From positions 356,241-420,240 of the IMG/VR virus record IMGVR_UViG_3300045988_170943: a stretch of DNA of 64,000 nucleotides; one strand, given 5' to 3'. The notes below the pieces were generated by a model. The model saw nothing but the letters and a program-made list of their open reading frames with translations, was not told where the DNA came from and made no database searches. Positions 30,788-49,006 of this stretch are shown here, in pieces; position 1 is the stretch's first letter; each line of letters begins with the position of its first letter. A program made the translations under genes and the position numbers. The stretch comes from a virus.

Positions 30788-30806
30788 CCTAAGCGAACCC
30801 GAACTC

Positions 30807-30858
30807 ATCGACTACACAAGAGGGGCACCTGGTTGGTTTTACTGCCACCAGGTGCCCC
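30807..30858 (+). terminator. rho-independent terminator after the pilin-like gene
   Basis: 16-bp stem aagaggggcacctggt / accaggtgcccctctt. Confidence 0.6.
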
Positions 30859-30998
30859 TCTTGTTGCAGCAACCTCTCAATAAACACTGTGTCAGCACAC
30901 CTTCAAAGCACATTAAACAACCAGATATAGAAATAGCCCCTGGGTTTTCGCTGATATTCCGCCGGTATTCCTGATGTTTTCGCAAGTAGAGGACCGGC

Positions 30999-31907
30999 AT
31001 GAACATAGATAATCCAGTGACGCTATCTGTCCTGTTCACACTTTTTGTCGGCCTCATCGTGTATGACCGTCTCATCCCTAAATCAGGTAGACGGTTCTCT
31101 GACGGCACTGGTGACGCTTCCAGGCGCAATCCCTTCCTGAAGTTCGTCACTGCTATGGGTGACGACATCTACGCGGCCATGCCAGCCTCTCTTGACAAGG
31201 GAAGGGAACAGAGACAGTACCCCAGGATCGAGTCGCTACTGAAACGATCCGGCAACCCGTGGGGGCTGACCCCCAGGGAGTTCGTGTCACTGAAGTTCGT
31301 TGCCGGAATCCTCGGGTTTGTCATCAGTTGGCCACTATGGCTGGGACTGAACGCCATGACCGGACTCCCATGGTGGGTCGTCGTCATTGTCGTACCAGCG
31401 TTCTGCTACATGATCCCCACCATCAAGCACACTGAACTGGCGAAGACACGAGACCTGGAGTTCAAACGACAGTTGCCAGAGGCCCTGGACCTCATCACCA
31501 TTACCCTGTCCGGTGGTAGTACTCTATCCCAGGCAATCCGTGACGTCATCCCCACTATGCAGAAAGGTATCCTCAAGGGTGAGTTCATCAACATGGTGCG
31601 TATCATGGACGCTGGAGGTACACTCAAGGAGGCTCTAGACGAGTTCGCCAACCGCGCCCCCAGTGATGGGATCCTGACATTCGTGCGTTCCGTCCAGTCG
31701 GCCGCCGAGGTCAACGCGCCCATGAACGAGATTCTTGAGGCCCGAGCCGAGGCGTCTAGGCAGGAGTTCTTCGCCCTCGTGCATGAGAAGGCAGCCCAGT
31801 TGGAGTCCAAGATCTGGATCATCCTGTCGCCAACCATGCTACCGGCCCTCATCATCATCTCTGTGGCCCCGTCCGTCAACGCTATCATCGAGATGCTAGG
31901 ACAGTAA
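30999..31907 (+). CDS. tadB: TadB/TadC-family inner-membrane platform protein (T2SS-F domain)
   Basis: LPEALDLITITLSGGSTLSQAIRDV, LDEFANRAPSDGILTFVRSVQSA, flanking TM helices. Confidence 0.7.
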   Translation: MNIDNPVTLSVLFTLFVGLIVYDRLIPKSGRRFSDGTGDASRRNPFLKFVTAMGDDIYAAMPASLDKGREQRQYPRIESLLKRSGNPWGLTPREFVSLKFVAGILGFVISWPLWLGLNAMTGLPWWVVVIVVPAFCYMIPTIKHTELAKTRDLEFKRQLPEALDLITITLSGGSTLSQAIRDVIPTMQKGILKGEFINMVRIMDAGGTLKEALDEFANRAPSDGILTFVRSVQSAAEVNAPMNEILEARAEASRQEFFALVHEKAAQLESKIWIILSPTMLPALIIISVAPSVNAIIEMLGQ

Positions 31908-31976
31908 GACACCACGCCAACCCCACAAAGACTGCAACAACCAGCACAAGGCTACACCACTACCACAGGAGCCCAG

Positions 31977-33695
31977 TTGTCACTCATCAGCACACCACTC
32001 ACCAGCACCAGCAGGCCGGATGCTGGGCGAGCCTCCATGCCTGGCCGACAGCGCATCACCCGCCCCACAGGAATGGGCCCAAAGCCAGCATTCTTCGCCC
32101 AATCTTCAGCGGACATGGCAGACGCCAGCGACCGCATGTTCAGTGACCTCATAGCCGACGACGAACTCACCACCAGCCACAACCCCACACAGTACACGAC
32201 CGGCAACGACCCATACTCCCGCACTCTGGACGCATTTGACAACCGACGCAAGCAAATCATCCAGGAAGACCCCTCAGGCGGCATCAAGACCTACTGGTTC
32301 ATGACAACACGCGACCTCATGGACGCCCCAGCAGACTTCTTTGACAAGTATGCGCCAGCAGTCGAGGCCGGGATCACATTCGTGCGCAACCGACTCACCG
32401 ACACCGGCCAGTCCGACCTCGTGAGACAGGCACAGGACCACCCCACAGACGAGAGCAAACAGAACCAAGCATTCTACGCAGTGCACTCGCTCGCCTCCGA
32501 GTCCCTGGCGAACTCCTCCTGGAGAAACATCCACCGGTCCATCGTCATCAGCCTCATCATCGCAGAAGTCATCGGTTTCGGTGTCCTTGACCCACTATGG
32601 CGCGACAGCACAGTCACCGAGATCATGTGCAACGGCCCCAAGGACGTGCAGGTCGAGATCGCCGGTGAGGTCTACAAGGTGCCCTGCCTGACATTCCGGG
32701 ACAGCAACCACCTCAACGACCTCATTGAACGCCTGTACCGCTCCATTGGTAAAGTCCTGTCCCAGTCCACCCCTAGAGTCAAGGGGCGCCTACACGACAA
32801 GTCCAGAATGTTCGCCGTCCACACATCAGTAGCCCCCGACGGCCCGAACCTCAACATCAGGCGACACCCCGAAGGTTTCTGGACCCCTGAGGCCATGGTG
32901 CATCGCGGGGCGGCCAGCCAGGAAATGATGACCTACATTGGGAACCTCATCCACAAGGGCGCATCCTGTTTCGTCGTCGGATCCACGTCGTCCGGTAAGA
33001 CATCCATGTTGAACGCCTTCACCGGGTTCTACGCACCGAACGCCAGGATCCTCACCCTTGAGGACAACCTGGAGATGAAACCCAACCCGAAAAAGTTCCT
33101 CGCTGCCGCCATGGAATGCCGTATCCCCAGCACGACAGACAGTGCGACAGCAGGAACCAGCATGCGTGACCTCGTGCACGCAGCCATGCAGATGCGACCC
33201 AACGCCATCATCGTGGGTGAGGTCACTGACAGCGCCGCCTATGACCTCTGCCAAGCCCTCAACACCGGCCACATGGGCATGAGCACGTTCCACGCTAACT
33301 CATCCCAACTATCCATCACCCGTATCTGCTCTCTCGTATCCCAGTCCGGCCTAACCACCATCGAGGGAGCCACAGACCTCGTTGCGGCCGCCTTCGACTT
33401 CATCGTCAACGTCCGCCACTTCCCTGTGGACGGCTCCCGCCGCATCGTATCCGTCGATGAGGTCGGTATGGAACCCATCGAGATCAACGGCCGCCTCACC
33501 CTCCCAGTACGCCAGTTGTGGAGGTTCGTTGACGAAGGCACCAACCACGAAGGGAAAGTCACAGGCCACTGGGAGCAGGTTGGAGACATCTCCCCTGAGC
33601 GCAGACACGCGAAGATGCTTGACCTGGAACGGGACCTGACATGGCCACAGTTGAAGGACCTGAGCAGCCTACCTGAAGGAGCACTAGAAGCATGA
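31977..33695 (+). CDS. tadA: CpaF/TadA-type secretion ATPase (T2SS-E/VirB11 family)
   Basis: Walker A GSTSSGKTS, Asp box, IIVGEVTDSAAYDLCQALNTGHMGMSTFHANS (His box). Confidence 0.8.
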   Translation: MSLISTPLTSTSRPDAGRASMPGRQRITRPTGMGPKPAFFAQSSADMADASDRMFSDLIADDELTTSHNPTQYTTGNDPYSRTLDAFDNRRKQIIQEDPSGGIKTYWFMTTRDLMDAPADFFDKYAPAVEAGITFVRNRLTDTGQSDLVRQAQDHPTDESKQNQAFYAVHSLASESLANSSWRNIHRSIVISLIIAEVIGFGVLDPLWRDSTVTEIMCNGPKDVQVEIAGEVYKVPCLTFRDSNHLNDLIERLYRSIGKVLSQSTPRVKGRLHDKSRMFAVHTSVAPDGPNLNIRRHPEGFWTPEAMVHRGAASQEMMTYIGNLIHKGASCFVVGSTSSGKTSMLNAFTGFYAPNARILTLEDNLEMKPNPKKFLAAAMECRIPSTTDSATAGTSMRDLVHAAMQMRPNAIIVGEVTDSAAYDLCQALNTGHMGMSTFHANSSQLSITRICSLVSQSGLTTIEGATDLVAAAFDFIVNVRHFPVDGSRRIVSVDEVGMEPIEINGRLTLPVRQLWRFVDEGTNHEGKVTGHWEQVGDISPERRHAKMLDLERDLTWPQLKDLSSLPEGALEA

Positions 33696-34651
33696 CCATC
33701 TCAACTATCTTCCCCTACCTGGTGGCGTTGGGCCTGACCACCTCCATCGGCATCATCGGGCTCATCGTCTATCTCGTGTGGCGCACCAGCCACAACGATG
33801 AAGAGTACGACTCCCAGTTGGCTGAACTTCTCAGCGACGACGTGGAAAGCGAACTGGGCAACTCCTCCACGAACGTCACCTACTGGTCCAGATGGTGTGA
33901 CTACTGGTCCCAGACGCTCCGTGGTGCGGGCGTGGACCGGTACTCCGTTGACGCCACCACAGCGGGCCGAGATGTCACCGTACTTCTGGCTACGATTGGT
34001 GTGATTGTCGGCGTCATCGCCAACAACATAATCCTGGGGGTGATCGCCACCGTCGTGGCTGGTACGGGGCTCTCCATGCTCATGAGGTACCGCTACAACA
34101 ACAAGAACGAGGATCTGAACTTGCAGATCCCTGGGTTCCTGTACTCCCTGAAGGCAAACATCCAGGCTGCGGACACGAACGAGCGGGCACTGCTGAAAAT
34201 CATCCCGTCCATCCCTTCCCCCTTGTATGATGACCTGAAGGTTGCTGAGTCAGTTCTCCAGTCTGGTGACACGTTCAAGGAGGCGATGGAGACAATGAGC
34301 GCGAAAACCACGTCCAGGGATCTTCAGTTCCTCTGCGCGTGCATGATCCAGGCGTCCGCCAGCGGCTCTAGCATGGTCACCCAGATTGACAGCATCCAAA
34401 GGGTCCTTGAATCTCGTCGTAAAGTATCCGATGAGATCAACCGGTCTGTGAAAGCGGTACAGCCAGCCATCTGGCTCGCCTCCGTCATTATCCCAGCCCT
34501 GTTCCTGGGCTCTTACTTCAGTGACTCTGCCGCACAGGGTTTCTGGTTCGTAACCCCCATGTCATGGGCGGCGCTAGCCTTAACGGCCATCCTGTACGCT
34601 ATTGGCCTGGTGATGACGAAGCGGCAGGTTGACAAGATCAGAAACATGTGA
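33692..34651 (+). CDS. tadC: TadC/TadB-family platform protein (T2SS-F domain)
   Basis: N-terminal TM, KEAMETMSAKTTSRDLQFLCACMIQASASGSS, C-terminal TM pair. Start overlaps the upstream stop. Confidence 0.7.
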   Translation: MTISTIFPYLVALGLTTSIGIIGLIVYLVWRTSHNDEEYDSQLAELLSDDVESELGNSSTNVTYWSRWCDYWSQTLRGAGVDRYSVDATTAGRDVTVLLATIGVIVGVIANNIILGVIATVVAGTGLSMLMRYRYNNKNEDLNLQIPGFLYSLKANIQAADTNERALLKIIPSIPSPLYDDLKVAESVLQSGDTFKEAMETMSAKTTSRDLQFLCACMIQASASGSSMVTQIDSIQRVLESRRKVSDEINRSVKAVQPAIWLASVIIPALFLGSYFSDSAAQGFWFVTPMSWAALALTAILYAIGLVMTKRQVDKIRNM

Positions 34652-34846
34652 CCTACCCCCAGCCATCAACATGTGTTGAACCTGAGTGGTTAATACAAAC
34701 ACCTCAGCCGTTGCTCTTACAGACAAGGCTGGGGTGTTTCTGTTGCCTCTTTGTAGGCAGAATAAGGGCGTCGATATGTGTGCGCACGACATCACGTGCA
34801 CAACTCTACAGACATGCGAACTTCACACTAAAGAACGGACACAACT

Positions 34847-35464
34847 ATGACAACAGGTGTTGGCAAAAACAGGGTAGGGACCCACAGGAGACTGGAGTTC
34901 ACCGTGGGACAGAAAAGCATCTTCAACACCAACATGAACATCAAGCACTACATGCAGAAAGCAAAACTGGTTGACACTATCCGCGCCATGGGAGCCAAAG
35001 CCGGTGCAGAAGCACACCCAGACAGAGAGACGGTAGAAGCCAGGCTTGATGCGTTACGACAGGAGCGACGCCTCGCTGCACGTAAGACCAGCACCATGAA
35101 GAAAATGATGAAACGAGGCGCCAGTCAGGAGGAGATCGACAAGGAGATGCAGGAGATTACCGAGTCCCTGTCGCCCTCCAAGCCCAGTAGTCGCATCCAG
35201 GCAACCCCACTATTCACCACATTCAAGATAACCATGACCGTCCACCCGCCGACACGCAGACGACTGGACCCACCCAACCTGTCCCCCACCCTCAAAGCCC
35301 TCGTAGACGGGCTCACAGACGCCTGCTGGTGGGACGACGACGACTACCGGCACCTTGTTGAGACCTCATTCCGTTACGGCGGCCTATCTGGTACCCCCGG
35401 AGAGTGGAGAATCGTCCTGGACGTGGAAGAAGTAGACCCCAGCGGATACGTCACCAGCAACTAG
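34847..35464 (+). CDS. RusA-like Holliday-junction resolvase domain protein with N-terminal extension
   Basis: RRRLDPPNLSPTLKALVDGLTDACWWDDDDYRHL matches the RusA D-x-D-N-x-x-K / DDD pattern. Confidence 0.5.
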   Translation: MTTGVGKNRVGTHRRLEFTVGQKSIFNTNMNIKHYMQKAKLVDTIRAMGAKAGAEAHPDRETVEARLDALRQERRLAARKTSTMKKMMKRGASQEEIDKEMQEITESLSPSKPSSRIQATPLFTTFKITMTVHPPTRRRLDPPNLSPTLKALVDGLTDACWWDDDDYRHLVETSFRYGGLSGTPGEWRIVLDVEEVDPSGYVTSN

Positions 35465-35617
35465 AGTCAAAACACCTACCCCAAGAAACAGGGATGCAAC
35501 CCACCCACACTTCCAAGGCAGGGGATAGATTATCGACTGCTGCCAGACGGAAGGATATTGAAAACCTATGAGAAACTACCACGATTCGCTTACTAGATGT
35601 GACGAAAGAAGGTCGCC

Positions 35618-36073
35618 ATGGGTGGAATAGTCGTCGCAAACTTCACGAACATGTTCAAGCGACGCATCCTTCTGTACTCGCTCGGTGATCTTAGGCTCAA
35701 CGCCCCCATATCCCTGAAGAAGGTCGGATACATCATCTTCTTCATTGTCATATACACGGCACCCATCATCTACTTCAACGGGATCGTGCTCAAACCATGG
35801 TTCCTGTTACTAGTGTTTGTGCCGCCGCTCCTCCTAGGTAACTACGCGGCCGAACCGATCTGGGCAGGAAGAAACCTCCTGGACTTCACCACAGTGTACA
35901 TAAAGTTCGCCACCTCCCCAAAGTACTGGTGCGACCTGAAAGCATGCGACGACCTCATGGTCAACCAGAAGGACAAGAGTGGTACCAGTGAGCCAGTCCA
36001 CTACGAGATCTGGGTAAGCCGACGTCGCGAGATCGCTGAACTGAAAGCACTCTACGCCGAAGAGAACCTGTAA
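35618..36073 (+). CDS. membrane protein, hypothetical
   Basis: Two to three TM helices. Confidence 0.45.
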   Translation: MGGIVVANFTNMFKRRILLYSLGDLRLNAPISLKKVGYIIFFIVIYTAPIIYFNGIVLKPWFLLLVFVPPLLLGNYAAEPIWAGRNLLDFTTVYIKFATSPKYWCDLKACDDLMVNQKDKSGTSEPVHYEIWVSRRREIAELKALYAEENL

Positions 36074-36140
36074 TAGCCTCCAGGGGTCTCAAAACTTTCA
36101 TCGCACACTACCACACTGACTGCATGGAGCAAACACTTAC

Positions 36141-37346
36141 ATGGCATACAAGTATAACTCATCACTGTTTCTGGGCGAGACGCTTGGGGGAAAACCCAGC
36201 CCAGTGTTCTTCGATCCGCACACATGCATCCTGAATAACCGACCGCCCACGACAGTCATCACAGGCGGCCCTGGCTCCGGAAAGACCTACATGCTGTTGA
36301 ACCTGGTGGCCCAGTCTGCCATCCTCGGCAAGGCGTGCGTCTTTTTGGACCCTAAAGGTGACGCCCTCGGTCTTCAGGCGCTTTCCAAGGATCTCGGCAA
36401 CCTGAAGTTCTGGAACCTCGCCGGACGAGGACAGAAAGGCATCCTAGACCCGTTCCAGATGCCCATTGATCATGAGAGCCAGCGGCTCGAACTCATCATC
36501 AATACTGTGGAGATGTTCGTCGGAAACATCACTGAAGACCAGAGAACAAGGCTCGGAGCCATCGTTGAAGACGTCATGCGCGAGCAGGTACCATCCCTGC
36601 TGCGTGTCGTTGAAGTCATGATCATGCACCGAGAGAGAGACGTCCGTAACCTTGGGAACCGGCTGAGCCTGATCTCAAAGATGAAGTTCGCCAACTTGTG
36701 CTTCGCCCCTGGCCGTAAGGGATTCAAGCCGCTCAGCCTGGACAGTGGTGTCACCATCGTCACCATGCCCGGCCTGAAACTCACAGTAGACAGCAAGGAC
36801 GGCATGTCGGGTGAGGAGCGAATCTCAGCCACCATATTCTTCCTTCTGACCAGCATGATCAACGGGATGCTCTACTCCTCTGACGTGTCTATGCGCAAGA
36901 TCCTGATCATCGACGAGGCGTGGGCAATCGCTGGTAACTCTGCTGGGTCCAAGGTCATTAAGGCGGTAGCAAAACTGGGGCGATCCAAGAACATGGCTGT
37001 CATACTCGCCAGCCAGAACCAGAGTGACCTCATGGGGGAGGACATTGATACCACCATATCCACACGATTCGCGTTCGCTACCGACTACAAGGAGGCCGCG
37101 AACATCACAAAGGCTATGCGACTCCCCACAGGGCAAGGGTTCGAACAAATCCTGACCTCTCTGAGCCCGGGCGAGTGCCTGATGGAGGAGAGTACCAGCG
37201 ATGATGGGCGCAGTCGTTACTCCACAATGAAAGCCGTTGTCATCTCCCCCAGGTGGGACGAGGCTTTCAGAACCAACCCTGAAGACGTGCGCGCAAGAGA
37301 AAAGAAGAGACGCAAACAGGCGGCAGCAAAAAAGAATCCTACCTAA
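36141..37346 (+). CDS. VirB4/TraG (AAA_10)-like P-loop ATPase
   Basis: Walker A TVITGGPGSGKTYML, Walker B KILIIDEAWAIAG, ILASQNQSDL, basic C-terminal tail. Confidence 0.6.
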   Translation: MAYKYNSSLFLGETLGGKPSPVFFDPHTCILNNRPPTTVITGGPGSGKTYMLLNLVAQSAILGKACVFLDPKGDALGLQALSKDLGNLKFWNLAGRGQKGILDPFQMPIDHESQRLELIINTVEMFVGNITEDQRTRLGAIVEDVMREQVPSLLRVVEVMIMHRERDVRNLGNRLSLISKMKFANLCFAPGRKGFKPLSLDSGVTIVTMPGLKLTVDSKDGMSGEERISATIFFLLTSMINGMLYSSDVSMRKILIIDEAWAIAGNSAGSKVIKAVAKLGRSKNMAVILASQNQSDLMGEDIDTTISTRFAFATDYKEAANITKAMRLPTGQGFEQILTSLSPGECLMEESTSDDGRSRYSTMKAVVISPRWDEAFRTNPEDVRAREKKRRKQAAAKKNPT

Positions 37347-37367
37347 AAATAGGATCGACATAACTGC

Positions 37368-37408
37368 TACACAATCCTGAGGAATCCCCGATATTCCTCA
37401 GGATTTTA
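37368..37408 (+). terminator. rho-independent terminator
   Basis: Stem aatcctgaggaat/attcctcaggatt followed by ttatttcg. Confidence 0.65.
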
Positions 37409-37437
37409 TTTCGCCTGACACAGAAGGAAGCGCCCCG

Positions 37438-38283
37438 ATGGCCGCAATCAGCAAAGTGAACAGAAGGAAGAAGACTAACCGTTTTCTCACTGGAATGGTA
37501 GTCGTCGTACTAGCGCTCATACTGGTCGGCTCATCCATGATCATGCGTAAGTTCTTCGAGACAGAAACCTACTACACGTTGAAACAGGACATCCCAGCAC
37601 ACACCCAGATCACCCCGGACATGCTGGAGCCAAAACAAGCACCCACCGGGTCTATCCCCTTCGAAAATTTAGTCACCCTCGCAAAAGTCCAATCAGACGA
37701 CCCTAAGGATGCAGTATTCTCCTCAGTTGCCCTCAAGGCCGGGGACATGGTGCCAAATTCAGTCGTTACCACCGGAAGTGAAGACCTCAAAAAGCAAATC
37801 CCTGAGGGCTGGGTCATCACCAACTTCAGTGTCAGCGCAGACAACGCCGTCGGCGGGCGCATCAAGAACGGTTCATACTTTGACATCCTTGTCGCCACAT
37901 CAGATGGCGCATTCTACCCGTTCCTCAACGTGAAGGCCCTCGACACCACTGTTGACCTGTCCAACGCCTCCTCATCTGACGCTGTTGATACTGAGGAGGC
38001 GCACGCCGGGCAGACCACGCAGTACACGGTTGGGCTCACACCGGAGAACGCATCCAAACTCCAGTCCATCATGAGCCAGTACAACGGCAACGTCAAACTG
38101 GTTCTGTCCAATGGTGTCAGCGACCCTGCCACTCACCAGCCGACAGGATCATTCGCCGGTAACGCCCCCGCCCCACTGTCAGTCAGCCCTGACACCGACA
38201 ATGGCGGCCAGGCCCCAGCATCCCAGCAGCAGGAAAAGCCCTCCGCGTCAGGGAATCAAGACCAGCGGGCCGAGAACAAGTAA
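37438..38283 (+). CDS. cpaB: CpaB/RcpC-like Flp pilus assembly protein (SAF domain)
   Basis: N-terminal TM anchor, SAF-like LKAGDMV, AVGGRIKNGSYFDILVA, Ser/Gln-rich tail. Confidence 0.6.
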   Translation: MAAISKVNRRKKTNRFLTGMVVVVLALILVGSSMIMRKFFETETYYTLKQDIPAHTQITPDMLEPKQAPTGSIPFENLVTLAKVQSDDPKDAVFSSVALKAGDMVPNSVVTTGSEDLKKQIPEGWVITNFSVSADNAVGGRIKNGSYFDILVATSDGAFYPFLNVKALDTTVDLSNASSSDAVDTEEAHAGQTTQYTVGLTPENASKLQSIMSQYNGNVKLVLSNGVSDPATHQPTGSFAGNAPAPLSVSPDTDNGGQAPASQQQEKPSASGNQDQRAENK

Positions 38284-38308
38284 CTAGGGATCTCCTGAGT
38301 CGATATAG

Positions 38309-38355
38309 TAAGGGTACCGAAAGTTGCAAAACAATCGGTACCCTTACACTTTTCT
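38309..38355 (+). terminator. rho-independent terminator
   Basis: Stem taagggtaccga/tcggtaccctta followed by cacttttct. Confidence 0.6.
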
Positions 38356-38409
38356 ACCACCAAATGTCAACACCCCAATAGTGTTGATCGTTGAAAGCAA
38401 GGGATACTA

Positions 38410-39837
38410 TTGGCTACTAGTATTATGCGCCCAAGAGCCATGTTTGTTGGACCAGAGCAGGTCTCAAACGTCATCAGGGACCACGCATGCCCCGACTGGG
38501 ACTGGTACCGGGTAGACACACTACAGGACGTTATAGCGGGATCACGAGACGGCGACGACTACTCCGACATCAACATGATCATTCTTGTTGACAGAATGTT
38601 CGAGAAGGAGTTCAACCCGGAACGCGAGTTCGAGACCATCGTCGCCTCATTCGGCACCAGCAAAATCGTAACTATCCTCCAATACAACAGCAGTCTCCAG
38701 TACAACATTGAGAACTCAGTGGCCGCCTATGCGAAAGACAAGGGGATCGGCGATGTCTCCATGAACTTCGTTGGAGCGGACTACGAATCGGCCATACCCC
38801 GCATCATCCACAACTACGTCAACGACCCCTATGCTGACGACTGGAACAAGGCAGTCATCAGCAACCGTGTCACCATCGACGAGAACGGCCAGGTTGTCAG
38901 CATCGCAGCCGACGAAACTACCGGTGAGGAGTGGGACGACGGCAGCAACTACTTCGAGGAGCAGGTAGACGACACCCAGTACCTCGGCCAGATCATCGCC
39001 GTCACCTCCAGCAAAGGCGGGTCAGGTAAGTCCACCGTCGCCGTCACTCTAGCCTCCTACCTGGCACACTCGTCCATGAGGTCAGTGGAGACCGGGGCGG
39101 TTGACAGGCCCCTGAAAGTCGCTATCCTCGACCTAGACATTGAAGACGGCCAGATCGGGTTCATTGCGGGCAGCATCCAGCCGACCATCCTGAACATGCG
39201 CACCCGGGGTATCTCGCAAGCCGCGTTTGAGGACACTGTTATCAAGAGCAAGCGGCTTGGTGTTGACCTCATCCTAGCCCCCAAGCGGCCACGCTCCAGT
39301 GCTGACACGCCACCTCAGTTCTACCGCGAGGTGATCGACTTCCTCAAGCAGCGGTACGATTACGTGATTCTGGACACTTCTGTACGCTACATGGATCCCC
39401 TTCTGGAGCAGGTGGCGTACCCCATGGCTGACGCCATAGTTTTTGTTACCGACATTGTGATCCAGTCCGTGATGTCTATGACACGGTGGGTGCAGGAGGT
39501 GACCTGGCCGGTAGAGAAGAACGGCATGGGGATCCCGGCATCCAAGATCGGTCTCGTGGTCAATAAGGCCATCGCTGATGTGCACATGAACGGGACTCGT
39601 ATCGCTAAAGCCGCTCCGGGCGTCGCCGTCGTTTCTGTGATCCCCAATAATGCGAAACTGATGGCTCACGCCGCTAACCTTCAGGCAATGCAGGTTGTTT
39701 TGAATCATCCAGAGATCCGCAAGTCATACAAGCGAATAGCAGATGCCATCATGGGTAAACGTTACGACAAGCACCTAGTGGATACCACCAAGGGCGAACG
39801 CTACAAGTTAAGTGACGACTTCAAGGTCACCACATAA
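38410..39837 (+). CDS. cpaE: CpaE/TadZ-like ParA/MinD-family ATPase with N-terminal receiver-like domain
   Basis: Deviant Walker A VTSSKGGSGKSTVA, LDLDIEDGQ, final gene of the Tad-like module. Confidence 0.7.
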   Translation: MATSIMRPRAMFVGPEQVSNVIRDHACPDWDWYRVDTLQDVIAGSRDGDDYSDINMIILVDRMFEKEFNPEREFETIVASFGTSKIVTILQYNSSLQYNIENSVAAYAKDKGIGDVSMNFVGADYESAIPRIIHNYVNDPYADDWNKAVISNRVTIDENGQVVSIAADETTGEEWDDGSNYFEEQVDDTQYLGQIIAVTSSKGGSGKSTVAVTLASYLAHSSMRSVETGAVDRPLKVAILDLDIEDGQIGFIAGSIQPTILNMRTRGISQAAFEDTVIKSKRLGVDLILAPKRPRSSADTPPQFYREVIDFLKQRYDYVILDTSVRYMDPLLEQVAYPMADAIVFVTDIVIQSVMSMTRWVQEVTWPVEKNGMGIPASKIGLVVNKAIADVHMNGTRIAKAAPGVAVVSVIPNNAKLMAHAANLQAMQVVLNHPEIRKSYKRIADAIMGKRYDKHLVDTTKGERYKLSDDFKVTT

Positions 39838-40283: not shown

Positions 40284-43145
40284 CTATGCGATAGTGATCT
40301 TGTCCTTACCCAGTAGACCCTTGAAGTATACGAGGTCGGCGGCGTGCCTCATACCCTCCTCCACAGTGCACCTCCCCTGCTCTACAGCATTAACGATCTG
40401 CCGCTCAATAGTCAGGTCATTGTCGCGCATATAGTCCTCAATGCCGTGGTCGTCGCCCGCGCCGATCATTTCCTGTACTTCACGAGTAATCTCAAGGACA
40501 GAGAACAGGGCGAACCGGCTCTTACCGTCAACAGTCTTCAAGAGTTCCTGGTTAGCGAGCCCACGAATGTTTGTCTGAAGCGTTGACAGTATACGCCTCT
40601 GATCCTCACCATCATACAGCGACTTGATACGGTTCAACGTGACGGCAGGCGTGTTTGAGTGGATCGTCGTCATCGTGAGGTGCCCTGACTCGGCTGCACG
40701 AAGAAACTCGTCAACCTCTTCCTGGTCTCGAACCTCACCCACCAGAATCGTGTCCGGGTCCTCACGCATAGCAGCCTTCAGCGCGTTCGAGAACGAGTGT
40801 GTGTCACTGCCCACCTCACGTGGAGTCAGCAAAGTAATGCCATCGTCAGGGTAGATGTACTCGATGGGCTTCTCAATAGTGACGATCCTCTGGTTACTGT
40901 TCTTCTGAAGGTTACGGATCAGAGATGCGAACGTTGTCGTGTTATGGGTTGGCACATAGTCCCTTGTGCACAGGAACAGGTGTGACGGGGAGTCCACCTC
41001 AAGGCACCAGAACTCCGACTGGGAGGCGTGCACCTCCTCCATGTACTCGATCTCAACAATGTTCCCCCCGTCTATTGTGGCGCTTGCGTGCGAGCCTCTA
41101 AAGTCATCGTTCAGGTAATCCCGCACACCAGTAATGCTCAAACGGTCACCCATAGTCTCAGTGGCGTGCATCCCCAGTGAGCGAGCCACACGAGCCACAC
41201 CCTCCCTGTGCTCATCATCCGGGATGCTGACTGTCGTGTCGCTGGAGTCTGCTGGCCCCTGAACCAGTAGTGCCCCCAACAGCATCAGCCGATCCGACAC
41301 GCTCCAGGAGACCGCCTCAGCAAGAACCTCACGTACCCCATCCTGCCCCTCTGTAAGGCCCGTGACAGCGGCCGCAAGCGCCACTGGCAACACGGTAGGG
41401 GCGGGGGGCTCAGGTACCTCCACAGGCCCCCTGAGTCCCCTGATAACGGGGTTGTAGCCGAACCTCTGGCACACCTCGAACATTTGCTGCGTCGTCACCG
41501 TGCGCGGCCCCTCAACGCGGCCCATCAGTGATTCCTGGGAGTGCAACTCCAGCAGGTGGGCGCACGACTTACCGACCAGGATCCCGTCACCAGTGTCACG
41601 GAACGTCCGAGAAAGAACACCAGCCACCATGTCTGCCATGTCGCCCGTGAGCCCAGCCCGGCGGGTGATCTCGTGGGCAGGCAGCCGTTCACCGTCTCTG
41701 GCAGCAACAACCATGTCCAGGAGGGCAGCAACAGACCTCTTCGGCAGGATGATACGGCAGTAATTGTCACAAGGGAACTCCGCGACCCACAGGTGGTTCC
41801 CCCCAGCCAGGACAGTCTCACTAAGGCCACGGAACTTGATGTGGAAGAACCTCTCCGACCCTCCGGGGTGCTTTCTCACCACTTTGCATGTGCTGCCGTT
41901 CTCGTCATACACGATGTCACCGACCTGCACGTCCCCAAGCCTGATGAACCCGCCAGGATAGTTCGGGCCAGGTATCAACGTGTCCTCGTGAAGATCCTTA
42001 CCGGAGCCAGTAATACCCCCCAGGATGATGCCGCCCTTACCGAACTTCGTCCACTCAATCAGGCGCGGGTCCACGTTCAGTTCCTCAGGAGACGGGATGA
42101 CATCACTGATGATACGGAACGTCATAGCATTGTGCCCAAGAGTGCGCGCAACATTCAACCTGGTGCGCCTCCCCGCGTGCATACTGGAACGCAACTCATA
42201 AGAGGTGTCCAGTTCCCAGTGCTCATGATAGTCAGTCTGGTTATCCTTGGTGACAATGTCCATGAAGATACGGCTCGTGACATCATAGGGGATAGGCCCG
42301 AACTTCTCGTCGCGCACAATGTCTCCATTGACCCTGTACGCGATACGCTTGTCTGGGTCGATATGGACGTCAGAAGCACCCATGTCGATACCTTGTGCGA
42401 TTACGGCGTCGATGTCGAAGCCTTTAAACGGATCCTCTTCCGCCTCCTCCTCTTCAATGCCGATCCCGTCTATGACGTCAAGAACCCCATCCAATGGGTC
42501 ATCGTCATAATCGTCGTCATAGTCCTCATCATCGTACCCGGCGTAAGGGTCCTCATACTCTGGATACTCATCATCCATAGGGGAGAACGGGTCCTCATCC
42601 TCCCCGTCAACACTCCCCTCACTGGTGTCGCCCGCGTCCATGTTGTCACTGTCAGCAGCAATGTCTGCACTGACGGCAACATAGTCTGCGTCACCATAGA
42701 GATCACCGTCACCACTACTTGCAGACAGGCCGCTAGCAGCCCCCAGGGCCTCAGGAGCACTACCTGCACTGTACTCAGAAACACCAAAATCTGTGACCGG
42801 TTCATCACCGTCAGCACCCAAACTAGCGTTCACAGGATCATCATAGTCGCCGTCGAGCACGCCATCATACTCAACACCTTCGTCGCTATCGCCCCACAGG
42901 CGCTCACTGTACCCATTATCTGGAACCTGGGTGGGCGCGTTCATATAGTCGGCGTCAACAGGTGTCGTTACCACGTCATCCTCGCCCGGCTCATCATAGC
43001 CGCCAGGAATAGTAGTCTCCTCCATGTGCGGCTGCGTGACCGGGGCGGCATGACCGGGCACATACTCATCATCCCCGTCACCCTGAAGGAACGGGTTGTA
43101 GTCCTCATCCCAGGCCTCAGCAGTAAGGTCAATACGGTCAGACAT
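40284..43145 (-). CDS. pilT: PilT/PilB-family secretion/retraction ATPase with 230-aa acidic N-terminal extension and an in-frame intein in the P-loop
   Basis: ASDVHI...RTRLNV...GGIILGGITGSGK | intein | TTTFASLI...ILVGEVRD (Asp box)...SGHLTMTTIHSN (His box). The exteins rejoin to the canonical GSGKTTT. Confidence 0.8.
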   Translation of the reverse strand: MSDRIDLTAEAWDEDYNPFLQGDGDDEYVPGHAAPVTQPHMEETTIPGGYDEPGEDDVVTTPVDADYMNAPTQVPDNGYSERLWGDSDEGVEYDGVLDGDYDDPVNASLGADGDEPVTDFGVSEYSAGSAPEALGAASGLSASSGDGDLYGDADYVAVSADIAADSDNMDAGDTSEGSVDGEDEDPFSPMDDEYPEYEDPYAGYDDEDYDDDYDDDPLDGVLDVIDGIGIEEEEAEEDPFKGFDIDAVIAQGIDMGASDVHIDPDKRIAYRVNGDIVRDEKFGPIPYDVTSRIFMDIVTKDNQTDYHEHWELDTSYELRSSMHAGRRTRLNVARTLGHNAMTFRIISDVIPSPEELNVDPRLIEWTKFGKGGIILGGITGSGKDLHEDTLIPGPNYPGGFIRLGDVQVGDIVYDENGSTCKVVRKHPGGSERFFHIKFRGLSETVLAGGNHLWVAEFPCDNYCRIILPKRSVAALLDMVVAARDGERLPAHEITRRAGLTGDMADMVAGVLSRTFRDTGDGILVGKSCAHLLELHSQESLMGRVEGPRTVTTQQMFEVCQRFGYNPVIRGLRGPVEVPEPPAPTVLPVALAAAVTGLTEGQDGVREVLAEAVSWSVSDRLMLLGALLVQGPADSSDTTVSIPDDEHREGVARVARSLGMHATETMGDRLSITGVRDYLNDDFRGSHASATIDGGNIVEIEYMEEVHASQSEFWCLEVDSPSHLFLCTRDYVPTHNTTTFASLIRNLQKNSNQRIVTIEKPIEYIYPDDGITLLTPREVGSDTHSFSNALKAAMREDPDTILVGEVRDQEEVDEFLRAAESGHLTMTTIHSNTPAVTLNRIKSLYDGEDQRRILSTLQTNIRGLANQELLKTVDGKSRFALFSVLEITREVQEMIGAGDDHGIEDYMRDNDLTIERQIVNAVEQGRCTVEEGMRHAADLVYFKGLLGKDKITIA
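40941..41996 (-). other. class-3-type intein (352 aa) in the PilT-like ATPase
   Basis: Block A DLHEDTLI (residue 1 is Asp), block B GGNHLW (Trp B:12), block F EFWCLEVDSPSHLFLC (Cys F:4), block G VPTHN with +1 Thr. Matches the WCT class-3 pattern. Confidence 0.65.
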
Positions 43146-43418: not shown

Positions 43419-45830
43419 CTACACGGCGACCTGAGTCAGTTCCAAAGGCTTACCATCCATACCCATAATGCGCTCAACCTTCACCGCATCCCTGAGGAAG
43501 GCCGCCCCCGACTTGAAGAACCCCCTGTCCCGAGGATTAGGTTCACGCTTCGCCCGGTTCTCAAACTCTACAGCCACAGACTCCACACACTCACTGATGA
43601 ACCTGCCCAAAGAGTCAGACACCACCAGGTAGCGGACCTCCCCATACGCGAACCACCCCGACCAGGCATAGTTTCTGAGCACCTTCTTCAACGCGCTACC
43701 CTGTTTACGAGTCAACTCGATCTCATATGCGATAGACCTAGCCCGACCATTCTTGTCCCGCACATCATAACGCATAATAAGGTCTGGCTGATGGTACGAC
43801 GAGTACTTATCCTTCTCATCATCCTTCGCGCACGGTACCCACAGCATCGGATACTTCTCCATGATGCCGTCACGTAACCCACTCGACAAGTCCTGGTATG
43901 CGTCAAGCATCTGCTCACGATACCTCACCAGACGTTCATCTCTCGACAAGGTGACACCAGAGCAGTTGCGCTCCATCCACCGCTCATTCACAAAGAACGC
44001 GGGCATAAACCCATGCAACTTACACTCGCGGGCAACAGTGTACGAAACCATAGCATTATGTGCGCCACGCTCAGTCATACGCGCACCCTTACGGGCACTA
44101 CGCACCTTAATGTTGTCAAAATCCACGCCAGACCTGTTATCCCGGAGCACCTGAAGACCCTTGCTCTTCAACCGGTAAATACTCTTACCACCAAGGAACA
44201 CGGTATCACTGATAATCAGGCCCATCTCCGCCAAACCAAGAAGACGCTTCGGCGCAGACTTCGGAGCCTTCAAACCCAGAATCGTCTGCACACTCCTAGC
44301 AGTAGCGGAACCAGACACAGCAATCAGTTCCAGCACCAACAAATCCTTCTGAGTGATCTTTGACCGATGATACTTCTTTCTCGGATTCCGCTTCTTCCTA
44401 CCTGAGACAGTCTCGCCACGACGCTGCCTGTGCCGCAGATCCGCCTCCTGAGCCTTACTACGCACAGGGAACTTCACATCAGGAGCGAACTCCTGCCGCA
44501 TGTACTCGCCAGTGTCAGAAGGAAGCGGCTGCAACCCCTGACCAGGCTTCTTCGGCGGAGGACGGTACCCCTTCATAAACGGCTTATTCTCAGGATTCAG
44601 GATATGCGGGTCAGTGACACCAACCAGATTCGGGTCAACTGGTTTCTTAGGTCGAGGCCGCTTAGGCTTCTGATACTGAACCACATACTTGCGATCCTCC
44701 AACACGTTCACATCATCAGTACCCAGACCAGCAGGCTCAGGACGCGACTCGCCACCACTGAGAGACAAGCCCCCGCCAGTAGACACACCGCCGGATCGCC
44801 CCCCGTCGTTTACTCCACTACGAGATTGCGCACCATTAGCATCTCCTCGACCACTACTGTCACGACGGAACCCACCCGAACCAAGACCAGCACCCACAGT
44901 GAGACCAGCAGTTACAGCAGGTTCCTGTGGGCTTCCCTGAACGCCACCACGACCATCACCCGCGCCACTGCCCGCAGCGCGCACACGACCCGAACCTTGC
45001 ACCTCACCATCAGGAGAAACGGGCCGCCTATCAGACGTTGAGCGGCCACCCGAGGCTACACTACCAGTGGGACGACGGCCTTCCCCCAACTGCGGGCGAC
45101 CACCGCCCTGAACCCCACCTACTGGCCTCTCATGATGTATAGCAGGCCTCGAAGCGCCTTCGCCCCCACCCGAGGTGCCCACGCCAGCACCATTACCAGC
45201 AGTCCCATGAGGAGCAGTGCGACGCTCAGGGTAAGAGTGACGAGAACTTCCCCCGTCCCCTACAACACCACCCTGAGCCCTCACGGGGCGGGCACCGCCA
45301 GCAGGAGATGCAGGGCGAGAGCCACCTCCCATGCCAGAGGTAACACCCTGCCTGACAACAGGTCCACCACCAGCCATACGACTTCCGCCACCCTGTGACT
45401 GTCGGACACCCATTGGGGCGACACCACCATGCGGTAGATCGCGGCCACGCACACTGTCACCCTTCACCACACCACGGGCGCTGTCGTTACCCCCAGGGTT
45501 GGACCTACCAAGAGACCCCACACCCCTAGGATGACCGCCTCCCCCACGCGACGGCACCACACCAACACCAGCCCCAGTAGGTCGCCCAGCGCCTCTTGCG
45601 TCACCCTGTGGCCGGGTGGGGGAAGCCTCGTCGTCACTGAGCAGGTCACTCATCATGTCATCGAGAAGATCATGCTCCACCTCAGCAGGCACGCCAACAG
45701 TACTACGTGCCGGGCCGCCATTAGTGCCAGAGACAGTCGGGCGCATGGGGCGGCTCACCCGGCTACGGTCACGGAAACTATTACGTGCGCCATCACGGCC
45801 AGGCTCATCAGTCACAAGCACACCCTCCAA
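43419..45830 (-). CDS. replication-relaxation-family-like (wHTH plus PD-(D/E)xK-like) protein with about 400-aa Gly/Arg/Ser-rich disordered N-terminus
   Basis: C-terminal LVLELIAVSGSATARSVQTIL (wHTH) and DLIMRYDV...AYEIELTRK (D...E-x-K). N-terminal low complexity. Confidence 0.4.
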   Translation of the reverse strand: MEGVLVTDEPGRDGARNSFRDRSRVSRPMRPTVSGTNGGPARSTVGVPAEVEHDLLDDMMSDLLSDDEASPTRPQGDARGAGRPTGAGVGVVPSRGGGGHPRGVGSLGRSNPGGNDSARGVVKGDSVRGRDLPHGGVAPMGVRQSQGGGSRMAGGGPVVRQGVTSGMGGGSRPASPAGGARPVRAQGGVVGDGGSSRHSYPERRTAPHGTAGNGAGVGTSGGGEGASRPAIHHERPVGGVQGGGRPQLGEGRRPTGSVASGGRSTSDRRPVSPDGEVQGSGRVRAAGSGAGDGRGGVQGSPQEPAVTAGLTVGAGLGSGGFRRDSSGRGDANGAQSRSGVNDGGRSGGVSTGGGLSLSGGESRPEPAGLGTDDVNVLEDRKYVVQYQKPKRPRPKKPVDPNLVGVTDPHILNPENKPFMKGYRPPPKKPGQGLQPLPSDTGEYMRQEFAPDVKFPVRSKAQEADLRHRQRRGETVSGRKKRNPRKKYHRSKITQKDLLVLELIAVSGSATARSVQTILGLKAPKSAPKRLLGLAEMGLIISDTVFLGGKSIYRLKSKGLQVLRDNRSGVDFDNIKVRSARKGARMTERGAHNAMVSYTVARECKLHGFMPAFFVNERWMERNCSGVTLSRDERLVRYREQMLDAYQDLSSGLRDGIMEKYPMLWVPCAKDDEKDKYSSYHQPDLIMRYDVRDKNGRARSIAYEIELTRKQGSALKKVLRNYAWSGWFAYGEVRYLVVSDSLGRFISECVESVAVEFENRAKREPNPRDRGFFKSGAAFLRDAVKVERIMGMDGKPLELTQVAV

Positions 45831-48843: not shown

Positions 48844-48864
48844 CGGCTGCGTTCACTGCGTTCA
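48844..48864. repeat. left copy (ggctgcgttcactgcgttcac) of a 21-bp perfect inverted repeat
   Basis: Partner is gtgaacgcagtgaacgcagcc at 49108-49128. Each copy is itself a tandem of gtgaacgca. Confidence 0.85.
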
Positions 48865-49006
48865 CTTCGCCTGGTTCCGGCATCGTGTTGGTTTGGGTTG
48901 TGGGTGGAGTCCTGGGTTGGGTTGTGGTTCTTGTGAGCAGTGTGTGGACAGTGTGGTGGCAGGTGTGCGCACATGGTGGCGGCATGGGGTGTGCGTGTGG
49001 GGTGGA

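What the first reader, a model, noticed from the sequence alone, without database searches (positions are those of the whole stretch)
40284..43145. PilT-like retraction ATPase carrying a 352-aa class-3 intein in its P-loop and a 230-aa poly-acidic N-terminal extension
The intein (40941-41996) splits GSGK|TTT. After splicing the Walker A motif is canonical. It begins with Asp and has the WCT hallmarks (NHLW, FWCLEV, THN|T). The extein also carries an Asp/Glu/Tyr-rich tail, unusual for PilT. Tad pili are not normally retracted by PilT, so a convergently placed PilT next to a Tad module hints at a composite, dynamic filament system. The intein could act as a conditional switch.
Basis: partly seen in the sequence, partly recalled or inferred. 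Interest (0 to 1): 0.7.

Follow-up and report, generated by a model that had tools for sequence, protein, structure and literature searches.

The report
Class 3 intein in PilT-like ATPase
A secretion-motor ATPase gene of a roughly 420-kb phage-like element from the human mouth is split in its ATP-binding loop by a self-splicing protein element of a known type at that type's usual site, so this is a real but fairly ordinary new example.

Summary
ORF 40284-43145(-) encodes a 953-aa protein. A 352-aa insert (40941-41996) sits exactly between the Walker A Lys383 and Thr736 (GSGK|D...THN|TTT).

GK|T is the "classic" P-loop site for inteins. Asp at position 1 recurs in 17 of 99 related junctions. 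This is therefore a new member of a known kind, with a new host protein.

The extein belongs to the PilT/PilU clade but is not a canonical PilT. It scores below the NCBIfam cutoff, lacks AIRNLIRE, and has a 243-aa acidic N-terminus that is predicted disordered and is conserved in the family.

The gene lies on an element catalogued in IMG/VR as a huge phage, from oral metagenomes, with contigs piling up at 405-424 kb. Across divergent relatives it stays next to a hybrid Tad/T4SS-like module and is preceded, in several of them, by a Replic_Relax-like gene.

The "retraction motor" and "conditional switch" ideas remain untested. A second class 3 intein lies at 18630-19607.

The parts
40284..43145 (-). 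Precursor gene, 953 aa: acidic extension + PilT-like N-domain + intein + PilT-like ATPase domain
   Evidence: ORF list. Pfam T2SSE and NCBIfam pilT_fam hits in two stretches. The exact protein is found on 8 metagenome contigs, up to 418 kb among the places shown.
42417..43145 (-). Acidic, predicted-disordered N-terminal extension (aa 1-243), with a conserved 'NPFL + acidic' short motif at aa 17-30
   Evidence: 32% D+E and 1% K+R. AF2 pLDDT is below 50 for aa 1-238, with almost no secondary structure. Acidic extensions and the motif are conserved in divergent homologues. dN/dS is 0.26.
41997..42416 (-). N-extein core: PilT-like N-terminal domain and Walker A up to Lys383 (GGITGSGK)
   Evidence: The spliced protein matches TIGR01420 positions 2-339 in one piece. 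K383 is invariant in alignment A1.
40941..41996 (-). Class 3 intein, 352 aa (Asp384...Asn735)
41766..41996 (-). N-terminal splicing half (blocks A and B). Asp384 is residue 1. The block B His451-Leu-Trp453 is at 41787-41795.
   Evidence: Aligns to MchDnaB-1 / MsmDnaBi1 N-terminal strands. H68 and W70 are invariant in A2. dN/dS is 0.085.
41082..41759 (-). Middle region: degenerate LAGLIDADG homing-endonuclease / DNA-recognition remnant
40941..41060 (-). C-terminal splicing half (blocks F and G). The predicted catalytic Cys714 codon is at 41004-41006. The terminal residues are Thr733-His734-Asn735.
   Evidence: CLEVDSPSHLFL..VPTHN aligns to cvEVDnPaHLyL..VPTHN of the solved class 3 inteins. C331, T350, H351 and N352 are invariant. 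dN/dS is 0.095.
40284..40940 (-). C-extein: Thr736 (+1 nucleophile and Walker A Thr), Asp box, Walker B, His box and C-terminal domain
   Evidence: BLASTP to Pseudomonas PilT gives 33% identity, with REVxxDT, DxILVGExRD and AAExGHL conserved. dN is about 0 against P0001.
30485..39837 (+). Convergent Tad/T4SS-like module: candidate pilin, T2SSF-like, TadA/CpaF/VirB11-like ATPase, second T2SSF-like, orf205, TcpE-like, TcpF/VirB4 C-domain-like, CpaB-like, MinD/CpaE(TadZ)-like
   Evidence: Precomputed Pfam. NCBIfam. Pfam T2SSF on orf319. Candidate pilin. Synteny in relatives.
43419..45830 (-). Upstream same-strand 803-aa ORF: Gly/Arg-rich N-half, then a C-terminal winged-helix plus PD-(D/E)XK-like domain. 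It is a distant Replic_Relax relative and a recurrent upstream partner of the PilT-like gene in several relatives.
   Evidence: BLASTP E 3e-6 to the L087 688-aa protein, which passes the Pfam Replic_Relax cutoff. Its orthologue in L086 has a weak hit. tblastn detects a homologue upstream on the same strand in 11 of 42 loci, and BLASTP links the overlapping upstream gene in L088.

Best explanation
The gene encodes the precursor of a hexameric secretion-type ATPase of the PilT/PilU clade. Its Walker A motif is interrupted, between the invariant Lys and the Thr, by a 352-aa class 3 intein.

Inferred from the class 3 pathway established for the MP-Be DnaB intein:
1. After translation, the block F cysteine (Cys714) attacks the Lys383-Asp384 peptide bond and forms a thioester branch.
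2. The N-extein is passed to the side chain of Thr736.
3. Asn735 cyclises and releases the intein.
4. An O-to-N shift leaves GSGKTTT.

Until this happens the P-loop cannot form, so ATPase activity depends on splicing.

The intein is a selfish element whose homing endonuclease has decayed. It has been inherited vertically in three sub-lineages and is kept splicing-competent by selection on the host protein. There is no evidence that it has a regulatory role.

The mature ATPase carries a 243-aa acidic disordered N-terminus, probably a tether. It most likely works with the adjacent, conserved Tad/T4SS-like envelope machine and the upstream Replic_Relax-like protein of a roughly 420-kb phage-like element from the human mouth. 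Which step it powers is not known; filament disassembly and substrate or DNA transfer are both possible.
For: Shown:
- Exact insertion point and restored Walker A.
- Seven intein-less and five intein-bearing homologues at the same site. In 39 IMG/VR loci, a junction pattern found 18 genes with inserts of 204-398 aa at this site. Two more genes of the same 610-aa length (L105, L106) escaped the pattern. The other 19 read through the Walker A.
- Class 3 hallmarks: non-nucleophilic residue 1, H-x-W, block F Cys, T-H-N, and +1 Thr, matching the definition in PMC2807308.
- 1160 homologous inteins with the typical two-stretch pattern. A pattern that required these features picked out 99 junctions among the 235 proteins held; nearly all follow a G-K, most in an evident Walker A.
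- dN/dS of 0.085-0.095 in the splicing halves, against 0.23 in the middle.
- All 15 listed members of the 206-member cluster keep the full length of 949-970 aa.
- Extein catalytic motifs are intact. The nearest solved relatives are PilT (E 1e-47), ahead of DotB (1e-31).
- Disordered N-terminus.
- Conserved neighbourhood.
- Element context.
Against: - Splicing has not been observed, and Asp at position 1 has never been tested biochemically.
- Pfam and NCBIfam intein models do not detect the insert.
- The intein model rests on only 6 sequences (mean pLDDT 73).
- The role of the ATPase is inferred only from gene neighbourhood. About half of the IMG/VR relatives, those with the short 394-aa form or the mini-intein 610-aa form, show no such module within 10 kb.
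- Whether the element is a phage or a giant plasmid was not established here. No capsid or terminase gene lies in the window.
Confidence: 0.85

Rival explanations
1. The intein is a conditional, for example redox-gated, switch. The catalytic Cys714 is reversibly trapped by oxidation or a disulfide with another intein cysteine (Cys37 or Cys343 of the intein), so the ATPase matures only under reducing conditions, which would time the activity of the machine.
For: There is a precedent. The class 3 DnaBi1 intein at the same Walker A position is reversibly inhibited by H2O2 through a Cys48-Cys118 disulfide (PMC6195587). This intein has seven cysteines. One lies between blocks A and B (C37), and one lies 12 residues after the catalytic Cys, in the LFLC motif (C343), which is shared by many relatives.
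Against: There is no direct evidence. The DnaBi1 partner Cys is not at an equivalent position. Conservation of splicing residues is equally explained by simple selection for efficient splicing. Intein-less homologues function without any such gate.
Confidence: 0.15
2. The insert is a dead intein or an exapted inserted domain. It no longer splices, and the gene is either a pseudogene or encodes an ATPase-dead scaffold.
For: Such cases exist, for example the Arthrobacter FB24 Arth_1007 intein pseudogene (PMC3196547). Curated intein HMMs miss the insert. The endonuclease part is degenerate.
Against: Every residue needed for class 3 splicing is present and invariant across 40-94% identical relatives. 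dN/dS is about 0.09 in the splicing halves and about 0 in the extein ATPase domain. The frame is intact in the 15 listed members of the 206-member cluster. The extein catalytic motifs are intact.
Confidence: 0.05
3. As to the extein's role, it is a dedicated PilT-type retraction motor for the Tad-like filament made by the neighbouring genes. That is a two-motor, dynamic Tad system.
For: Sequence is closest to PilT/PilU structures. Linkage to the TadA/TadB/TadC/CpaB/TadZ-like genes is conserved. Tad systems normally use the single bifunctional CpaF (PMC11300603 and PMC12019362, listed), so an added PilT-clade motor would be a distinct design.
Against: The AIRNLIRE motif is absent and the score is below the family cutoff. 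The module also holds T4SS parts (TcpE-like, TcpF/VirB4-like). In several relatives the gene is preceded by a relaxase-family-like gene, which points as much to DNA or protein transfer, as with DotB or TraJ. No pilin or prepilin peptidase was verified.
Confidence: 0.3
4. As to the extein's role, it is a DotB/TraJ-like energiser of a conjugation-like DNA transfer apparatus, working with the upstream Replic_Relax-like protein. In that case the element would be a transmissible megaplasmid or phage-plasmid rather than a pure phage.
For: A gene pair with a Replic_Relax relative recurs: it overlaps the PilT-like gene in L088 and is adjacent in L086, L087 and the window. TcpE-like, TcpF/VirB4-like and FtsK-like genes are nearby. 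Second-tier NCBIfam hits are TraJ and DotB.
Against: PilT models score far higher than TraJ or DotB models (266 against 123 and 118 bits). IMG/VR files the element as viral. The Replic_Relax link for the window ORF is indirect and weak.
Confidence: 0.3

Closest known systems
Mycobacterial DnaB class 3 inteins (MchDnaB-1, PDB 6rix/6riy; M. smegmatis DnaBi1, PDB 6bs8)
   Different: The host protein is a PilT-like secretion ATPase, not a replicative helicase. Residue 1 is Asp, not Ala. This intein carries a ~225-aa degenerate endonuclease region, whereas the solved proteins are mini-inteins. The regulatory Cys48 of DnaBi1 is not conserved.
Mycobacteriophage Bethlehem DnaB intein, the class 3 prototype (Tori et al. 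2010, PMC2807308)
   Same: WCT triplet and Thr+1. The block F spacing C...D(+4)...H(+8)...F(+10) is identical. It is phage-borne, and its size is similar (341 aa against 352 aa).
   Different: Residue 1 is Pro against Asp here, and the extein differs. Splicing was shown experimentally there but not here.
'Classic' P-loop inteins between Walker A Lys and Thr/Ser (for example mycobacteriophage TerL1-a, PMC5050341) and inteins in secretion ATPases (archaeal VirB11 and CpaF, bacterial VirB4, B. vietnamiensis IcmO; PMC4760082, PMC2807308)
   Same: Same insertion logic, in the same ATPase superfamily (PF00437 for VirB11 and CpaF). They are enriched on mobile elements.
   Different: PilT-clade hosts are not in the published lists I could read. 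Here the hosts are bacterial, on phage-like elements.
PilT/PilU type IVa pilus retraction ATPases (for example Aquifex PilT 2ewv, Geobacter PilT 6ojx)
   Same: Full-length collinear similarity of the spliced core: E 1e-47, and 33% identity to Pseudomonas PilT. Walker A, Asp box, Walker B and His box are conserved.
   Different: It has a 243-aa acidic disordered N-terminus and no AIRNLIRE motif. It scores below the TIGR01420 cutoff. It is encoded next to Tad/T4SS-like genes on a huge phage-like element, not in a type IVa pilus locus.

Membership tests
Class 3 intein (Tori et al. 2010) | Non-nucleophilic residue at intein position 1 | tested here: met
   Asp384 directly follows Walker A Lys383. 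The register is fixed by intein-less homologues and by alignment to MchDnaB-1, SVGK|A (PMC7664689).
Class 3 intein (Tori et al. 2010) | Trp at block B position 12, two residues after the block B His | tested here: met
   H451-L-W453. H68 and W70 are invariant in A2. H-x-W is present in all 99 pattern-selected junctions; the start-selection step did not require it.
Class 3 intein (Tori et al. 2010) | Cys at block F position 4 (the initiating nucleophile) | tested here: met
   Cys714 in FWCLEVDSPSHLFL aligns with the catalytic Cys of 6rix and 6bs8 and is invariant.
Class 3 intein (Tori et al. 2010) | [quoted passage not shown] | tested here: met
   T733-H734-N735|T736.
Class 3 intein (Tori et al. 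2010) | HINT (Hedgehog/intein) fold of the splicing domain | tested here: met
Class 3 intein (Tori et al. 2010) | Splicing that goes through a block F thioester branched intermediate and strictly needs the block F Cys | not testable with these tools
   This needs expression plus C714A, N735A and T736A mutants.
PilT/PilU family type IVa pilus ATPase (NCBIfam TIGR01420) | Score at or above the curated family cutoff | tested here: not met
   The spliced protein scores 266.5 bits against a cutoff of 319.1, although it matches profile positions 2-339 of 343.
PilT/PilU family type IVa pilus ATPase (NCBIfam TIGR01420) | Walker A, Asp box, Walker B (with catalytic Glu) and His box | tested here: met
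   After splicing: GSGKTT, REVGSDT, DTILVGEVRD and AAESGHL align to the PilT motifs.
PilT/PilU family type IVa pilus ATPase (NCBIfam TIGR01420) | C-terminal AIRNLIRE motif of PilT (feature recalled from the literature on PilT) | tested here: not met
   Pseudomonas TPAIRNLI aligns to TREVQEMI, which is followed by GAGD.
PilT/PilU family type IVa pilus ATPase (NCBIfam TIGR01420) | Pilus retraction activity, and location with type IVa pilus genes | not testable with these tools
   Activity is untestable here. The neighbours are Tad/T4SS-like, not type IVa pilus genes.
Tad (tight adherence) pilus locus (the neighbouring module) | CpaF/TadA ATPase, TadB/TadC platform, CpaB/RcpC, and TadZ/CpaE | tested here: inconclusive
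   All four have hits, but each is below its curated cutoff: TIGR03819 170 bits against 373; CpaB 43 against 71; T2SSF by Pfam; MinD/CpaE-like. TcpE-like and TcpF/VirB4-like genes are interleaved, which is not a Tad feature.
Tad (tight adherence) pilus locus (the neighbouring module) | Flp-type pilin and a TadV prepilin peptidase | tested here: inconclusive
   There is only a candidate 100-aa ORF (30485-30787) with a Gly followed by a hydrophobic stretch. No peptidase was identified or searched for specifically.
DotB / TraJ type IVB secretion ATPases | Score at or above the NCBIfam cutoffs for TIGR02524 / TIGR02525 | tested here: not met
   117.8 bits against 463, and 123.2 bits against 368. 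PDB DotB E 1e-31, against PilT 1e-47.

The most novel reading that the evidence does not exclude
The roughly 420-kb oral elements filed as huge phages encode their own hybrid Tad/T4SS-like envelope machine. It would have two motors: a TadA/CpaF-like ATPase, and a PilT-clade ATPase tethered through an acidic disordered arm. It would be coupled to a relaxase-family protein. Such an apparatus would give a phage-sized genome a pilus-based or conjugation-like route for DNA or protein transfer. Maturation of the second motor would be gated by class 3 intein splicing, which depends on a redox-sensitive cysteine.
Probability: 0.15. Interest if true: 0.75.

Novelty: new member of a known kind. Interest (0 to 1): 0.4.

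Why it matters
For intein biology:
- It adds a new host family, PilT-clade ATPases, to the list of P-loop proteins colonised by class 3 inteins.
- It shows that Asp at position 1 is a recurrent natural variant.
- It documents a lineage where full-size, mini and absent inteins coexist at one site, which suits study of intein gain, decay and loss.
- The mini-inteins of 194-264 aa at this site could be mined as tools.

For phage and pilus biology, the context matters more than the intein. A prevalent, uncultured, roughly 420-kb oral element carries a conserved Tad/T4SS-like module plus a PilT-clade motor with an unusual acidic tether. I found nothing like this in the jumbo-phage review or the oral phage database paper that I read.

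None of this changes current understanding unless the function of the machine is shown.

Tried and rejected
- Pfam and NCBIfam scans of the whole protein and of the insert alone found no intein family. The only hit was Hom_end at E 0.18. I did not take this as evidence against an intein, because PDB sequence search, the exhaustive phmmer search and the fold search all agree.
- The search for homologous proteins with the intein alone returned nothing. This was evidently a word-filter failure, since one search found 1160 hits.
- Megablast of 28-50 kb against plasmids and phages gave no match.
- In that scan, the long matches looked like intein-bearing PilT genes. Where I translated them, two were tandem PilT-PilU pairs, one was a GspE/PilB-like gene followed by pilT, and one was two adjacent PilT-like genes. 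I dropped the idea that common PilT genes carry inteins.
- The promoter/terminator scan was uninformative. Rfam found only the tRNAs and the tmRNA.
- I considered and rejected a shifted splice junction, because the intein-less homologues fix K|...|T.
- I considered and rejected a recent duplication of the window's second intein. The two share only 33-40% identity in the splicing blocks.
- I considered and rejected a plain chromosomal Tad island. Contig sizes, the IMG/VR listing and the gene content argue for a huge extrachromosomal or viral element.
Full report
**1. The observation**

The minus-strand ORF 40284..43145 is an uninterrupted 953-codon frame. In its product, GSGK is followed by DLHEDT at residue 384, and THN by TTT at residue 736. 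Removing it gives GGITGSGKTTTFASLI.

The first 243 residues precede the start of the PilT-family match at residue 245. They are 32% Asp+Glu with 1% Lys+Arg. Over residues 1-235, Asp is 21%, Glu 10% and Tyr 7%.

The gene converges on a plus-strand block of secretion-type genes that ends at 39837.

**2. Is the insert an intein, and where is it?**

Three independent lines agree.

*(a) Comparative evidence.* A search with the whole protein found a small, unnamed, metagenome-only family. In the alignment, seven members (P0006-P0012) read G(S/T)GK(S/T)T without interruption. P0001-P0005 and the window protein carry an insert at precisely that point. Lys383 and Thr737 (the second C-extein residue) are invariant columns, and the +1 residue is Thr or Ser throughout. 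One of these inserts (P0005) carries the Pfam LAGLIDADG_3 and Hom_end domains.

Among 39 IMG/VR loci, a junction pattern found 18 genes with inserts of 204-398 aa at this site. Two more genes of the same 610-aa length (L105, L106) escaped the pattern. The other 19 read straight through the Walker A.

*(b) Sequence.* The insert alone hits the solved class 3 mini-inteins of mycobacterial DnaB (6rix, 6riy, 6bs8; E 1e-5 to 1e-4). The matches cover both ends, including CLEVDSPSHLFL..VPTHN against cvEVDnPaHLyL..VPTHN.

An exhaustive phmmer search of 1.84 billion representative proteins gave 1160 hits at E <= 1e-3. Most show the two-stretch pattern expected of inteins, residues 1-75 plus 315-352.

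A pattern requiring an N-terminal X-L-x3-[TE]-x2-[PT] start after G-K/G-R, and C-x3-D...[ST]-H-N-[STC] at the end, picked out 99 junctions among the 235 proteins then held. All 99 show H-x-W, the block F Cys and T/S-H-N, and nearly all follow a G-K. Because the pattern demanded most of these features, this shows recurrence, not frequency. The host proteins I inspected include PilT-like, CpaF/VirB11-like, VirD4-like, FtsH, Clp, SNF2 and TerL proteins.

Curated Pfam and NCBIfam intein models do miss the insert, so automatic annotation would not flag it. JGI calls the protein simply PilT.

**3. Class and mechanism**

Tori et al. defined class 3 inteins by four features (PMC2807308):
- a non-nucleophilic first residue;
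- co-variation with Trp at block B position 12, Cys at block F position 4 and Thr at block G position 5;
- Ser or Thr at +1;
- most are inserted in ATPase P-loops.

The window intein has Asp1, H451-L-W453, Cys714, T733-H734-N735 and Thr+1. The Cys...Asp(+4)...His(+8)...Phe(+10) spacing in block F is the same as in the prototype.

The N-extein of MchDnaB-1 ends SVGK before Ala1 (PMC7664689). [quoted passage not shown]

By inference from that established pathway, Cys714 attacks the Lys383-Asp384 bond and the N-extein is handed to Thr736. Asn735 then cyclises, and an acyl shift restores GSGKTTT. These steps are inferred, not shown.

It occurs in 17 of the 99 junctions; Ala is commonest, and Asn, Gln, Leu, Gly, Ser, Met, Phe, Arg and Glu also occur.

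**4. State of the intein**

The middle region aligns with the LAGLIDADG endonuclease of the P0005 intein. Where P0005 has LGAWLGDGS and LLRGLMDTDGS, the window has PVALAAAVTGL and LLGALLVQGPA. The motif acidic residues are therefore gone, which suggests an inactive endonuclease (inference).

Against the 94%-identical P0001 allele, dN/dS values are:

| Region | dN/dS |
|---|---|
| Intein splicing halves | 0.085 and 0.095 |
| Intein middle region | 0.23 |
| N-extein core | 0.03 |
| C-extein | about 0 |

Asp1 inteins of 348-398 aa occur in the window clade, in P0002 (52% identity) and in the P0088/L091 clade (about 40%). All 15 listed members of the 206-member cluster are 949-970 aa long.

This is the picture of an old, vertically inherited intein that has lost mobility but must still splice.

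**5. The extein**

After splicing, the core matches NCBIfam PilT/PilU over positions 2-339 of 343, but at 266.5 bits against a cutoff of 319.1. TraJ (123 bits) and DotB (118 bits) are far behind. Solved PilT and PilU chains are the best PDB relatives (E 1e-47 to 1e-44), ahead of DotB (1e-31) and GspE (1e-22).

Against Pseudomonas PilT it is 33% identical. The Asp box, Walker B and His box are conserved, but TPAIRNLI corresponds to TREVQEMI.

The precursor model gives pLDDT below 50 and almost no secondary structure for residues 1-238. Both PilT domains are confident.

Long acidic N-termini recur through the family. Several divergent lineages share an "NP[FL]L + acidic run" motif near the N-terminus. 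I read this as a disordered tether with a docking peptide, which is speculative.

So it is a PilT-clade motor, but not a canonical PilT.

**6. Context**

The exact protein lies on human oral metagenome contigs. Contig lengths for this and neighbouring genes pile up at 405-424 kb in many samples, and none has an NCBI source. IMG/VR lists the element as a viral genome (for example UViG_3300008363_000089, 394 kb, 96% identity) and holds 39 related loci on contigs of 12-398 kb, most of them over 100 kb.

The window also has:
- four tRNAs and a tmRNA;
- a PolIII-alpha fragment, a clamp loader, NrdD, GyrA, and RadA-like and FtsK-like genes;
- three TnpB-like genes;
- many ORFs with no family.

A 2025 catalogue reports thousands of poorly annotated oral huge phages. 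Some are linked to Actinomycetaceae, and Cas12f-like proteins are predicted among them (PMC12297358). No capsid or terminase gene is in the window, so I did not verify phage against giant plasmid.

The neighbouring plus-strand genes are, in order:
- a candidate pilin;
- a T2SSF-like protein;
- a TadA/CpaF/VirB11-like ATPase;
- a second T2SSF-like protein;
- orf205;
- a TcpE-like protein;
- a TcpF/VirB4 C-domain-like ATPase;
- a CpaB-like protein;
- a MinD/CpaE-like protein.

All have hits below curated cutoffs. This order is kept next to the PilT-like gene in P0002's contig. Parts of it are kept in about 20 further loci whose proteins are only 27-60% identical. Relatives with the short 394-aa form, or the 610-aa mini-intein form, show no such genes within 10 kb.

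Upstream on the same strand lies an 803-aa ORF. Its C-terminal part is weakly similar (E 3e-6) to the protein that precedes P0009. That protein passes the Pfam Replic_Relax cutoff (28.1 against 25.3 bits). In L088 the corresponding genes overlap.

Tad pili normally use one bifunctional ATPase, CpaF (PMC11300603 and PMC12019362, listed). However, the T4SS parts and the relaxase-family neighbour make a DNA or protein transfer role about as likely as filament retraction.

**7. Comparison with what is known, and verdict**

Inteins are already recorded in archaeal VirB11 and CpaF, in bacterial VirB4 (PMC4760082) and in an IcmO coupling protein (PMC2807308). I found no report of one in a PilT-clade protein.

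The intein is thus a genuine, well-supported class 3 intein at the standard site in a new host family: a new member of a known kind.

The "conditional switch" rests only on the DnaBi1 precedent (PMC6195587).

The more unusual aspect is the setting: a conserved Tad/T4SS-like machine with an acid-tailed PilT-clade motor on a prevalent, roughly 420-kb oral phage-like element. The jumbo-phage review I read does not mention such a machine, and the oral phage database paper returned nothing relevant for 'pilus' or 'Tad'.

**8. In passing**

A profile built from the collected junctions found a second class 3-type intein in the window (18630-19607). It sits in a Cas4/RecB-like nuclease, after the Lys of its DYK|TG motif. 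It is only 33-40% identical to the first in the splicing blocks. Class 3 inteins in phage RecB-like proteins have been reported (PMC5050341).

Noticed in passing
window 18630-19607 (+), inside ORF 18018-20003: A second class 3-type intein (326 aa; Gly1, HLW, block F Cys, THN, +1 Thr) sits in a PD-(D/E)XK / Cas4-RecB-like nuclease that has a C-terminal Cys cluster. It is inserted after the Lys of the DYK|TGK motif, which is a catalytic-motif site but not a P-loop. It is only 33-40% identical to the PilT-like intein in the splicing blocks.
   Followed up: partly
window ~47000-54000, switch point near 48500: There are no convincing ORFs on either strand, and strand asymmetry is extreme. GC skew flips from about -0.40 to +0.40 (peak +0.70) within 500 bp, and AT skew flips from +0.53 to -0.35 and on to -0.72. 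The G+T-rich strand points away from 48.5 kb on both sides, as at a bidirectional replication origin. The region is more variable between strains (80-92% identity with indels, against 94% in flanking genes). There is no Rfam hit.
   Followed up: partly
window 192-4345: A cluster of four tRNAs (Thr-GGT, Thr-CGT, Ser-TGA, Thr-TGT) and a tmRNA (tag ANSDNFALAA), on what appears to be a ~420-kb phage-like element.
   Followed up: no
window 7468-9009(-), 20850-22379(-), 59735-61411(+), with 59239-59862(+): Three TnpB / Cas12f-like ORFs. The last is preceded by an ORF whose translation looks like an HTH plus serine-recombinase protein (read from the sequence, not searched), which would be an IS607-like arrangement.
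   Followed up: no
window 5861-7357 (+): The DNA polymerase III alpha gene is only 498 aa (PHP domain plus the start of the NTPase domain) and is followed by a TnpB gene. Most listed members of its 185-member cluster have the same 496-498-aa length, apart from three 54-aa fragments, so this is not an assembly artefact. Whether the polymerase is split or truncated was not examined.
   Followed up: no
window 13379-14518 (-): A free-standing HNH endonuclease-like ORF lies next to the anaerobic ribonucleotide reductase gene nrdD (11295-13283). It is another likely selfish element.
   Followed up: no
window 43054-43095 (aa 17-30 of the PilT-like protein); also P0002, P0004, P0006, P0088, P0100, P0106, L091-L096: A short 'NP[FL]L followed by an acidic run' motif near the N-terminus of the acidic extension is conserved across lineages whose extensions are otherwise unalignable. 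It may be a docking peptide.
   Followed up: partly
window 43419-45830 (-); L087 7808-9874; L088 1079-2692; L086 513-2876: In several relatives the PilT-like gene is preceded by a gene for a protein with a winged-helix plus PD-(D/E)XK-like C-terminal domain related to Pfam Replic_Relax. In the window copy, the N-terminal ~480 aa are an extremely Gly/Arg-rich low-complexity region.
   Followed up: partly
proteins P0090, P0095, P0103, P0105, P0111, P0112, P0124, P0135, P0136, P0139, P0182; P0094, P0108, P0121, P0130, P0134, P0207: The nearest relatives of this intein sit at the same Walker A position in CpaF/VirB11-like ATPases and VirD4/TcpA-like coupling proteins from metagenomes. This subfamily of class 3 inteins therefore seems to circulate among secretion-system ATPases.
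   Followed up: partly
window 54292-55080 (+): A DNA methyltransferase carrying a DPPW motif (PHROG 359, E 8e-55), adjacent to the skewed non-coding region.
   Followed up: no
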